Assembly: GCF_013167455.1 (NCBI RefSeq)
Contig: NZ_CP038328.1
DNA length: 64,000 nucleotides
Origin: Escherichia coli O157:H7
GTDB lineage: Bacteria; Pseudomonadota; Gammaproteobacteria; Enterobacterales; Enterobacteriaceae
Direction: 5' to 3' (one strand)
Below, one piece after another: positions 23,909 to 26,599 of this stretch (position 1 is the first letter of the stretch; the number at the start of each line of letters is the position of its first letter). Made by a program: the position numbers.

Positions 23909-26599
23909 TGAATAATCGAGTCCACCAGGGCCACTTAGCCCGTAAACGCTTCGGGCAAAACTTTCTCAACGATCAGTTCGTGATCGACAGCATTGTTTCT
24001 GCCATTAACCCGCAAAAGGGCCAGGCAATGGTCGAAATCGGCCCCGGTCTGGCGGCATTGACCGAGCCGGTCGGCGAACGTCTGGACCAGCTGACGGTCA
24101 TCGAACTTGACCGCGATCTGGCGGCACGTCTGCAAACGCATCCATTCTTAGGCCCGAAACTGACGATTTATCAGCAGGATGCGATGACCTTTAACTTTGG
24201 CGAACTGGCCGAGAAAATGGGTCAGCCGCTGCGTGTTTTCGGCAACCTGCCTTATAACATCTCCACGCCGTTGATGTTCCATCTGTTTAGCTATACTGAT
24301 GCCATTGCCGACATGCACTTTATGTTGCAAAAAGAGGTGGTGAATCGTCTGGTTGCAGGACCGAACAGCAAAGCGTATGGTCGATTAAGCGTCATGGCGC
24401 AATACTATTGCAACGTGATCCCGGTACTGGAAGTTCCGCCGTCAGCCTTTACACCACCACCCAAAGTGGATTCCGCCGTCGTGCGCCTGGTTCCTCATGC
24501 AACGATGCCTCACCCGGTTAAAGATGTTCGTGTGTTGAGCCGCATCACCACCGAAGCCTTTAACCAGCGTCGTAAAACCATTCGTAACAGCCTCGGCAAC
24601 CTGTTTAGCGTCGAGGTGTTAACGGGAATGGGGATCGACCCGGCGATGCGAGCGGAAAATATCTCTGTCGCGCAATATTGCCAGATGGCGAACTATCTGG
24701 CGGAGAACGCGCCTTTTCAGGAGAGTTAACGATGATCAATTCGCCCCGAGTGTGTATTCAGGTTCAAAGCGTCTACATTGAGGCACAATCTTCACCTGAT
24801 AATGAACGTTACGTTTTTGCTTATACCGTAACCATACGCAATCTGGGGCGAGCGCCAGTGCAGTTGTTGGGGCGTTACTGGCTGATCACCAATGGCAATG
24901 GCCGTGAAACCGAAGTCCAGGGCGAAGGAGTGGTTGGCGTCCAGCCACTTATCGCGCCTGGCGAAGAGTACCAGTACACCAGCGGTGCAATCATTGAAAC
25001 CCCGCTGGGCACCATGCAGGGTCACTACGAAATGATCGATGAAAATGGCGTCCCTTTCAGCATCGACATTCCCGTATTCCGACTCGCCGTTCCCACACTC
25101 ATTCATTAAAAGAATATGGCGACATACCTTATTGGCGACGTTCATGGTTGTTACGATGAACTGATCGCATTGCTGCATAAAGTAGAATTTACCCCTGGGA
25201 AAGATACCCTCTGGCTGACGGGCGATCTGGTCGCGCGCGGCCCGGGTTCGCTGGATGTTCTGCGCTATGTGAAATCCTTAGGCGACAGCGTACGTCTGGT
25301 GCTGGGCAATCACGATCTGCATCTGCTGGCAGTATTTGCCGGGATCAGCCGCAATAAACCGAAAGATCGCCTGACACCGCTGCTGGAAGCGCCGGATGCC
25401 GACGAGCTGCTTAACTGGCTGCGTCGCCAGCCTCTGCTGCAAATCGACGAAGAGAAAAAGCTGGTGATGGCCCACGCAGGGATCACGCCGCAGTGGGATC
25501 TGCAGACCGCCAAAGAGTGCGCGCGCGATGTAGAAGCGGTGCTGTCGAGTGACTCCTATCCCTTCTTTCTCGACGCTATGTACGGCGATATGCCAAATAA
25601 CTGGTCACCGGAATTGCGGGGGCTGGGAAGACTGCGGTTTATCACCAACGCCTTTACCCGTATGCGTTTTTGCTTCCCGAACGGTCAACTGGATATGTAC
25701 AGCAAAGAATCGCCGGAAGAGGCCCCTGCCCCACTGAAACCGTGGTTTGCGATTCCTGGACCTGTCGCTGAAGAATACAGCATCGCCTTTGGTCACTGGG
25801 CATCGCTGGAAGGCAAAGGTACGCCGGAAGGTATTTACGCGCTGGATACCGGCTGCTGCTGGGGTGGGTCATTAACCTGCCTGCGCTGGGAAGATAAACA
25901 GTATTTTGTCCAGCCGTCGAACCGGCATAAGGATTTGGGTGAGGGAGAGGCGGTCGCGTCTTAAATCCCGTCGAGCATAAAATCTAATGCTCCTTTAATC
26001 AACGTTCGGTGCGCGCTGGCATCGCAAAATTTCGTTCCCAGCGCGTTAACTGGAACAGTTGCAGTCTCATGCGTCATGAGCACATATTCTTTGCCGTCTA
26101 CCAGTAAAAGGATTGGGTTAAGCCGTTCTGGTGGGCGAATACGGCTAAATCGTTCAATAGGTGTTAATGGAATAACAATACGGCGATTAATCACACCAAT
26201 AATGTCGCTGGTAACATCGATAACAAAGGGAAACGCGGCGTTCCTGCTGCGACTGCGGTATACCGTAAATTGCATCGCTAGAAGCTCCGGTACTCATCAG
26301 AGAAACATCCGGTTTCATCAGCCAATTGATTTAACGCAGCGATAGCTTCAGCGTTCTCTTCACGCCAACGTGTTGCTGCATGTTTTTTAAGTTCAGCATT
26401 GAGCGCAACCGTAAGGGTGGCGCTCATATTTAAGCCTGCATCACGAGCGCGATTGACTAACTCACGGTCGACGGTGACGGTCACACTTTGTGTGGTACGT
26501 TTTGCAGTCATGATATCGTGCTCCTGTACAATTTATACGTCTAGTATACACGGATATCTGCACGTATCAGTGATGCCGGAATTCTAATATACAAAATTA

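What the first reader, a model, noticed from the sequence alone, without database searches (positions are those of the whole stretch)
25961..26596. Chromosomal ccdA/ccdB-like toxin-antitoxin module in the folA-apaH spacer
Two small minus-strand ORFs (77 aa and 104 aa, 2 bp apart) resemble CcdA and CcdB. They occupy a spacer that I recall as only about 80 bp in K-12. The ccdB stop overlaps the convergent apaH stop by 4 bp, and the putative ccd promoter/operator (26512..26596) contains short palindromes (GTATAC, GATATC) and abuts the folA stop. This is an accessory addiction-type module in a core housekeeping neighbourhood, matching the chromosomal ccd described for O157-type strains as I recall.
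Basis: partly seen in the sequence, partly recalled or inferred. Interest (0 to 1): 0.55.

Follow-up and report, generated by a model that had tools for sequence, protein, structure and literature searches.

The report
Known chromosomal ccdAB toxin-antitoxin islet

Summary
The ORFs lie at 25961..26275 (104 aa) and 26278..26511 (77 aa) on the minus strand, 2 bp apart. The 104-aa ORF overlaps the convergent apaH stop by 4 bp (TTAA). An 85-bp AT-rich leader holding GTATAC and GATATC abuts the folA stop.

The ORFs match Pfam CcdB (E 1.4e-31) and CcdA (E 1.5e-26) over their full length. They also match solved CcdB and CcdA structures.

The 636-bp stretch is 100% identical to E. coli O157:H7 EDL933 and other O157:H7 chromosomes, where RefSeq annotates the same two genes. 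It occurs once, always on the chromosome, in 2024 of 5426 complete E. coli genomes. A further 2857 genomes carry the K-12-type 77-bp spacer with a REP element.

This is the ccdO157 islet described by Wilbaux et al. 2007 and Mine et al. 2009. It encodes a gyrase-poisoning toxin and a ribbon-helix-helix antitoxin. It is reported to be weakly expressed, unable to stabilise plasmids, and evolving neutrally in the species.

Novelty: already known. Interest: low. What remains untested is transcriptional coupling to folA read-through and to convergent apaH transcription.

The parts
25961..26275 (-). ccdB(O157): 104-aa CcdB-family toxin (gyrase poison). Its TAA stop overlaps the apaH stop within TTAA at 25961-25964.
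   Evidence: ORF. Pfam CcdB PF01845, E 1.4e-31, full length. PDB hits: V. fischeri CcdB 2kmt E 8e-17 and F-plasmid CcdB 1vub E 5e-11, both end to end. RefSeq WP_001160975.1 'CcdB family protein' at the identical site in EDL933. The C-terminal G103-I104 are invariant with F and V. fischeri CcdB.
26278..26511 (-). ccdA(O157): 77-aa CcdA-family antitoxin, with an N-terminal ribbon-helix-helix DNA-binding part and a C-terminal CcdB-binding part.
   Evidence: ORF. Pfam CcdA PF07362, E 1.5e-26. PDB: F-plasmid CcdA 2adl, E 9e-6. 31% identity to F CcdA, with conserved TVTVD (11-15) and RW..EN.E (48-55). RefSeq WP_000125566.1.
26285..26288 (-). GGAG Shine-Dalgarno for ccdB. It lies inside the end of ccdA, 9 nt before the ccdB ATG, and suggests translational coupling.
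   Evidence: Read directly from the sequence. The function is inferred.
26512..26596 (-). Leader, putative promoter and operator of ccdAB: 37.6% GC, with five 6-bp palindromes. AGGAG Shine-Dalgarno at 26521-26525, 9 nt before the ccdA ATG.
   Evidence: Sequence. Palindromes. Enrichment P = 0.02. One sigma-70-like match (CTGATA, 16 nt, TATACT; 26570..26543), which is no more than the shuffle expectation. GC content. Function is inferred by analogy with the F-plasmid ccd operator.
26544..26549 (.). Perfect GTATAC palindrome, the same hexamer that sits at the centre of the F-plasmid ccd operator. Flanked by GATATC (26553-26558), GTATAA (26533-26538 on the minus strand) and TGTACA (26525-26530), at 8-11 bp spacing.
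   Evidence: The F operator is described in PMC5389731. Binding here was not tested.
25967..26579 (.). Extent of the islet: about 613 bp that stand in place of about 62 bp of REP-containing spacer in K-12. The flanks TTAAA (25961-25966 side) and AATTC..TATACAAAA (26580-26596) are shared with K-12.
   Evidence: Global alignment of the window against the K-12 spacer. K-12 spacer sequence.

Best explanation
This is the chromosomal ccdO157 type II toxin-antitoxin islet of the E. coli O157:H7 lineage, in its intact reference form.

Shown here: a two-gene operon on the minus strand, ccdA (77 aa) then ccdB (104 aa), with both products full-length members of the CcdA and CcdB families. The DNA is identical to EDL933. 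It sits as a roughly 613-bp insert where K-12 has a REP element.

Inferred from the family and from published work on this element: CcdB binds the GyrA dimerisation region and traps gyrase in a cleavage complex. CcdA's disordered C-terminal half wraps around CcdB and neutralises it. CcdA is turned over by Lon. Alternating CcdA2-CcdB2 chains bind the palindrome-rich leader through CcdA's ribbon-helix-helix domain and repress the operon in a ratio-dependent way.

Biological role, from the literature: most likely a horizontally acquired, largely selfish or neutral passenger. It is weakly expressed, unable to mediate post-segregational killing, not protective against the F-type CcdB of pO157-like plasmids, and decaying in part of the species.
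For: ORFs and geometry are. Pfam hits are CcdB E 1.4e-31 and CcdA E 1.5e-26, both full length. Solved-structure relatives are CcdB of V. fischeri and the F plasmid and CcdA of the F plasmid.

The 636 bp are 100% identical to O157:H7 EDL933, E32511 and PV15-279, with the same RefSeq annotation. There is 1 SNP in the 5.6 kb around the locus and 99.95% identity over 50 kb.

The element is present once, on the chromosome, in 2024 of 5426 genomes. The K-12-type REP spacer is present in 2857.

Conserved residues: G103 and I104 in CcdB; the TVTVD beta-strand and the RW..EN.E motif in CcdA. The leader holds a GTATAC palindrome like the F operator centre.

Literature: ccdO157 lies between folA and apaH in EDL933 and forms a genomic islet. 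It cannot stabilise an unstable plasmid. F CcdA neutralises the chromosomal toxin, but F CcdB is neutralised only by its own antitoxin. Chromosomal ccdB is under neutral evolution.
Against: Nothing was expressed or assayed here. The primary papers (Wilbaux 2007, Mine 2009, Gupta 2017) are not held in the library, so their results are cited through reviews and my own recollection.

Both proteins fall below the NCBIfam equivalog cut-offs trained on the F-plasmid proteins: 62 against 147 bits and 39 against 100 bits.

The position equivalent to F CcdB W99, which is reported as crucial for toxicity, is Asp here. V. fischeri CcdB, a proven gyrase poison, has Thr at that position.

The promoter consensus match is no better than chance.

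One review (PMC10886550) states the opposite direction of cross-protection from the other two.
Confidence: 0.93

Rival explanations
1. Anti-addiction module: chromosomal CcdA(O157) neutralises the CcdB toxin of incoming or lost F-type plasmids such as pO157. Cells could then lose the plasmid without dying, and that benefit maintains the islet.
For: The general anti-addiction model for chromosomal TA systems is described. One review says the chromosomal CcdA cross-neutralises F CcdB (PMC10886550). CcdA here keeps the CcdB-binding motif RW..EN.E shared with F CcdA.
Against: Two reviews, one of them from the characterising lab, state the reverse. F CcdB is neutralised only by its cognate antitoxin and 'evades' the chromosomal antitoxin, whereas F CcdA neutralises the chromosomal toxin. 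The two antitoxins share only 31% identity.
Confidence: 0.05
2. Stress or drug-tolerance module: under stress, Lon degrades CcdA and the freed CcdB transiently inhibits gyrase. This raises the fraction of antibiotic-tolerant persister cells. This is a host-beneficial role and is not exclusive of the main explanation.
For: [quoted passage not shown] 2017) is cited, where the O157 version is described as attenuated in toxicity. The ccd system is linked to persistence.
Against: I could not read that paper. Molecular-evolution analysis reports neutral evolution of chromosomal ccdB. The islet is absent from 63% of complete E. coli genomes. Neither protein matches any PADLOC defence model.
Confidence: 0.2
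3. This particular copy is a decayed, non-toxic variant, with an inactive toxin and a retained antitoxin.
For: The literature describes defective ccdO157 alleles in some strains. Length variants and a remnant exist among the genomes (hits H21-H30). Asp stands at the F-W99-equivalent position.
Against: Both ORFs are intact and full length against their family models. The DNA is 100% identical to EDL933, the strain in which the system was characterised as functional (function per the reviews).
Confidence: 0.04
4. The ORFs are chance reading frames in an expanded spacer.
For: None.
Against: Full-length family matches at E 1e-26 to 1e-31. Conservation at 95% identity or more in 2024 genomes. Shine-Dalgarno sites at the correct spacing for both genes.
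Confidence: 0

Closest known systems
ccdO157, the chromosomal ccdAB of E. coli O157:H7 EDL933 (Wilbaux et al. 2007 J Bacteriol 189:2712; Mine et al. 2009 Genetics 181:1557)
   Same: Identical DNA over all 636 bp, the same folA-apaH position, and the same two proteins (WP_000125566.1, WP_001160975.1).
   Different: Nothing detected. It is the same element.
F-plasmid ccdAB (CcdA 72 aa, CcdB 101 aa)
   Same: Same gene order, antitoxin then toxin, with near-abutting genes: 1-nt gap in F, 2-nt gap here. Same Pfam families. CcdB G-I C-terminus and the CcdA RHH strand TVTVD and RW..EN.E motif are conserved. GTATAC-type palindromes lie upstream.
   Different: Only 36% (CcdB) and 31% (CcdA) identity, and below the NCBIfam equivalog cut-offs. 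W99 is replaced by Asp. The leader is 85 bp, against a 113-bp operator with eight sites in F. It is chromosomal, never on a plasmid, in 2024 genomes. It is reported unable to cause post-segregational killing.
Vibrio fischeri chromosomal CcdB (PDB 2kmt, 3jsc, 4elz)
   Same: This is the best solved-structure match (E 8e-17, 37% identity, residues 2-104). It shares the PLTPIE motif and also lacks Trp at the F-W99 position.
   Different: Different host and genomic context, and the sequence identity is still low.
K-12-type folA-apaH spacer with a REP element
   Same: Same flanking core genes and shared junction sequences: TTAAA and AATTC..TATACAAAA.
   Different: 77 bp with a REP palindrome and no genes. 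Found in 2857 of 5426 genomes, against 2024 with ccd.

Membership tests
CcdB toxin family (Pfam PF01845) | Full-length match to the family profile above the significance threshold | tested here: met
   E 1.4e-31, 109 bits, query 2-103 against model 1-101 of 101.
CcdB toxin family (Pfam PF01845) | Sequence relationship to structurally solved, gyrase-poisoning CcdB proteins over the whole chain | tested here: met
   2kmt (V. fischeri) E 8e-17; 1vub (F plasmid) E 5e-11, residues 1-104 against 1-101.
CcdB toxin family (Pfam PF01845) | C-terminal residues needed for killing in F CcdB (W99-G100-I101) | tested here: inconclusive
   G103 and I104 are conserved, but the W99 equivalent is D102. V. fischeri CcdB has Thr there and still poisons gyrase, so Trp is not family-defining. 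notes that the effect of Asp is unknown for the CFT073 allele.
CcdB toxin family (Pfam PF01845) | Poisons DNA gyrase (GyrA), with toxicity relieved by gyrA R462C | not testable with these tools
   Reported for the O157 protein in the literature (Wilbaux 2007 from my own recollection). Not assayed here.
CcdA antitoxin family (Pfam PF07362) | Full-length match to the family profile | tested here: met
   E 1.5e-26, 93 bits, query 8-77 against model 2-71 of 71. F CcdA 2adl E 9e-6.
CcdA antitoxin family (Pfam PF07362) | N-terminal ribbon-helix-helix strand and C-terminal CcdB-binding segment | tested here: met
   T11-V12-T13-V14-D15 and R48-W49, E52-N53, E55 are identical to F CcdA. The fold itself was not modelled.
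Type II toxin-antitoxin operon | Two small adjacent co-directional genes, antitoxin first, closely spaced, each with a ribosome-binding site | tested here: met
   2-bp gap. AGGAG lies 9 nt before the ccdA ATG and GGAG 9 nt before the ccdB ATG.
Type II toxin-antitoxin operon | Autoregulated promoter with palindromic operator sites bound by the antitoxin or the complex | tested here: inconclusive
   There are five 6-bp palindromes in 85 bp, including GTATAC (P = 0.02), as in F. The sigma-70 consensus match is no better than in shuffles. Binding was not tested.
Type II toxin-antitoxin operon | Toxin toxic, antitoxin neutralises it, antitoxin labile (Lon) | not testable with these tools
   Literature only.
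ccdO157 islet | Located between folA and apaH, with sequence identity to the EDL933 element | tested here: met
   100% identity over 636 bp and the same neighbours rsmA-apaG-apaH / folA-kefC.
F-plasmid CcdB / CcdA equivalogs (NCBIfam NF010262 / NF010264) | Score at or above the curated equivalog cut-off | tested here: not met
   62.1 bits against a cut-off of 147, and 38.6 bits against 100. These are family members but not F-type equivalogs.
Known anti-phage defence systems (PADLOC-DB 2.0) | Match to any defence-system protein model | tested here: not met
   0 families for either protein at E up to 0.01.

The most novel reading that the evidence does not exclude
The islet replaced the REP element that separates folA from the convergent apaH in K-12, and I found no terminator-like hairpin in three places. 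There is none between folA and ccdA (fold z = -1.1; no terminator hit). There is none on the + strand after apaH. The only two hits on the - strand lie inside ccdB.

ccdAB might therefore be transcribed partly by read-through from folA, which would tie TA dosage to folate or trimethoprim stress. ccdB mRNA might also be opposed by antisense read-through from the rsmA-apaG-apaH operon. Such context-dependent control of a gyrase toxin by two housekeeping operons has not, to my knowledge, been described for ccdO157.
Probability: 0.12. Interest if true: 0.35.

Novelty: already known. Interest (0 to 1): 0.1.

Why it matters
It matters little as a discovery, because the element was described and characterised in 2007-2009 and RefSeq annotates it routinely.

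It remains a useful marker. It identifies the window as O157:H7-type chromosome. It also illustrates that the folA-apaH spacer is a recombination hot spot with at least three states: REP, intact ccd, and remnants with other cargo.

At the scale of 5426 complete genomes the split is 53% REP, 37% ccd and about 10% other. This agrees with the roughly 50% REP figure attributed to the Mine et al. 2009 survey of several hundred strains.

Tried and rejected
Primary papers: I tried to read Wilbaux 2007 (PMC1855815), Mine 2009 (PMC2666520) and Gupta 2017 (PMC5585702). None is held, so their content is cited through reviews.

Promoter: the sigma-70 consensus scan gave one weak match (CTGATA, 16 nt, TATACT), no more than shuffles give. 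I therefore do not assign a promoter.

Terminator: the RNA fold of the folA-ccdA leader is not more stable than shuffles (z = -1.09), so there is no evidence for a terminator or a structured leader.

Base composition as evidence of foreign origin: the islet is 46.9% GC against 51.3% for the window, which is only the 19th percentile of 610-bp windows. This is not diagnostic.

Anti-phage defence: no PADLOC match.

F-type equivalog status: rejected on the NCBIfam cut-offs.

Operator comparison: the F-type plasmid I fetched (pSCU-479-1) carries GCATAC where the paper on the F operator describes a perfect GTATAC. Only imperfect sites were seen in that plasmid, so the comparison of operators rests on the paper.

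Not run: structure prediction and large protein-database searches, because the identity to a characterised element made them unnecessary.

Full report
**Observation**

- A 104-aa ORF lies at 25961..26275 on the minus strand.
- A 77-aa ORF lies at 26278..26511 on the same strand. Its TAG stop is separated from the downstream ATG by two bases.
- apaH runs 25116..25964 on the plus strand, so the two convergent genes share the four bases TTAA (25961-25964). These hold both stop codons.
- folA is also on the minus strand and ends at 26597. This leaves an 85-bp leader (26512..26596) of 37.6% GC.
- AGGAG lies 9 nt before the ccdA ATG. GGAG lies 9 nt before the ccdB ATG, inside the end of ccdA.

The leader holds five 6-bp palindromes:
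- GATATC at 26512 and again at 26553
- TGTACA at 26525
- GTATAC at 26544
- GAATTC at 26579

Mononucleotide shuffles give 1.55 on average (P = 0.02). Only 0.8% of all 85-bp windows in the 64-kb window reach five. This enrichment is real but modest.

**What the proteins are**

The 104-aa product matches Pfam CcdB (PF01845) end to end, with E 1.4e-31. The 77-aa product matches Pfam CcdA (PF07362), with E 1.5e-26.

Against solved structures:
- The toxin aligns over its whole length with V. fischeri CcdB (2kmt, E 8e-17) and with F-plasmid CcdB (1vub, E 5e-11).
- The antitoxin aligns with F-plasmid CcdA (2adl, E 9e-6).

Identity to the F proteins is 36% for CcdB and 31% for CcdA.
- In CcdB, the C-terminal Gly-Ile is invariant. 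The position equivalent to F W99 is Asp; it is Thr in V. fischeri.
- In CcdA, the ribbon-helix-helix strand TVTVD is identical to F. So is the C-terminal RW..EN.E segment, which corresponds to the toxin-binding half of F CcdA.

Both proteins fall well below the NCBIfam equivalog cut-offs built on the F-plasmid proteins: 62 against 147 bits and 39 against 100 bits. They are family members but not F-type equivalogs. Neither matches a PADLOC defence model.

**Where it comes from**

Megablast of the 636 bp against 5426 complete E. coli genomes gives 100% identity to O157:H7 strains, including EDL933. RefSeq annotates 'CcdB family protein' and 'type II toxin-antitoxin system CcdA family antitoxin' at the same place.

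The window as a whole is O157:H7-type. It is 99.95% identical to EDL933 over 50 kb, and its gene order is thiBPQ-ara-polB-...-apaH / folA-kefC-...-carAB.

The element is found in 2024 genomes, once each and always on the chromosome.

**The empty site**

K-12 MG1655 has a 77-bp folA-apaH spacer that contains a REP-like palindrome (GCCGGATAAGACGCGACCGGCGTCGCATCCGGC). Aligning the two shows two stretches of shared sequence:
- through the apaH stop (TTAAA);
- in the last 14-17 bases before the folA stop (AATTC..TATACAAAA).

About 613 bp here therefore stand in place of about 62 bp in K-12. The K-12-type spacer is present, at 80% coverage or more, in 2857 of 5426 genomes.

The remaining roughly 10% carry something else. 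One example is strain 2017-02-2CC, which has a 72-bp ccdB remnant plus an unrelated 204-aa gene.

**Comparison with the literature**

Several papers in the library name exactly this element.
[quoted passage not shown] The same source says some strains carry defective copies or none, and about half of several hundred isolates have a REP there (PMC3184786).
- The folA-apaH region of K-12 and HS is 77 bp and lacks ccdAB (PMC7232551).
- ccdO157 forms a genomic islet by itself, cannot stabilise an unstable plasmid, and shows signs of degeneration in the species (PMC2654758).
- The chromosomal toxin is neutralised by the F antitoxin, whereas the F toxin is neutralised only by its own antitoxin (PMC7354431; PMC3920263).
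- Chromosomal ccdB is under neutral selection.
- The O157 CcdB is one of three CcdB proteins used to study gyrase inhibition, and it is described as attenuated (PMC10886550).

That last review gives the opposite direction of cross-protection. I follow the two reviews that agree, one of which comes from the characterising lab.

The primary papers (Wilbaux 2007; Mine 2009) are not held. My recollection of their abstracts matches the reviews. As I recall them, the toxin targets gyrase, CcdA is degraded by Lon, the promoter is weaker than that of F, and 69% of variants are fully active while 29% have an inactive toxin.

**Mechanism**

Shown here: the operon anatomy, family membership and identity to the characterised allele.

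Inferred from the family (PMC5389731; PMC10886550):
- CcdB binds GyrA and stabilises the cleavage complex.
- CcdA's C-terminal half binds CcdB and releases it from gyrase.
- Lon degrades CcdA.
- Chains of alternating CcdA2 and CcdB2 bind regularly spaced weak sites on the operator and repress transcription until toxin exceeds antitoxin.

The F operator is 113 bp with eight sites and is centred on GTATAC palindromes. The leader here is 85 bp with one perfect GTATAC and neighbouring GATATC, GTATAA and TGTACA sites 8-11 bp apart. This is compatible with a shorter operator of the same kind, but it is untested. I do not assign a promoter, because the only consensus match is no better than chance.

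**Open points**

No terminator-like hairpin lies between folA and ccdA, nor on the plus strand after apaH. The REP that separates the two convergent units in K-12 is gone. Read-through from folA into ccdAB, and antisense read-through from apaH across ccdB, are therefore possible. They are not addressed in the material I could read. This is the only reading with any novelty, and I give it a low probability.

**Verdict**

The feature is already known and routinely annotated, so interest is low.

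Noticed in passing
window 26936-26938 (folA codon 47; folA = 26597..27076, minus strand): The DHFR encoded here differs from K-12 by a single residue, W47R. EDL933 carries the same allele. The 61 bp around the codon are 100% identical in only 296 of 5426 complete genomes, and the listed examples are O157:H7. It looks like a lineage polymorphism next to the NADPH-binding R44-H45-T46 stretch. Its effect on enzyme activity or trimethoprim response was not examined.
   Followed up: partly
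window 25938-25964 (3' end of apaH): The ApaH C-terminus is ...LGEGEAVAS here and ...LGEAAAS in K-12, through two in-frame 3-bp indels and substitutions. The same ApaH protein accession occurs in a strain that keeps only a ccdB remnant. The variable segment or recombination junction therefore seems to reach into the apaH coding end.
   Followed up: partly
L005 6001-6731 (E. coli 2017-02-2CC, NZ_AP027764.1): In this strain the folA-apaH spacer holds a 72-bp 3' remnant of ccdB plus a 204-aa gene annotated 'IS1096 element passenger TnpR family protein'. This is another state of the same hot spot.
   Followed up: no
window 17293 (inside espY1) and 34743 (fixA-caiT intergenic): Relative to the EDL933 assembly CP120944, the window lacks 15 bp in frame within the T3SS effector gene espY1 and 5 bp in the fixA-caiT intergenic region. 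It also has 4 SNPs, at 802, 16797, 18186 and 27598.
   Followed up: no
about window 88-657 (espY2), 16922-17100 (IS4/Tn5 transposase fragment) and 17112-17864 (espY1): Two T3SS effector genes, espY2 and espY1, and a frameshifted IS4/Tn5 transposase fragment are interspersed among core genes (thi, ara, polB, rapA, rluA, djlA), as annotated in EDL933. These are small O157-type accessory inserts besides the ccd islet. The coordinates upstream of 17293 are shifted by +15 relative to locus L003.
   Followed up: no
window 899-998 (+) and 47331-47383 (-): Rfam gathering-level hits: a TPP riboswitch upstream of thiB, and the ES003 sRNA (87 bits) in the carA-dapB intergenic region.
   Followed up: no
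literature (PMC10886550 versus PMC7354431 and PMC3920263): The reviews disagree on the direction of cross-neutralisation between chromosomal and F-plasmid ccd. One says chromosomal CcdA protects against F CcdB. Two say F CcdB escapes the chromosomal antitoxin while F CcdA neutralises the chromosomal toxin.
   Followed up: partly
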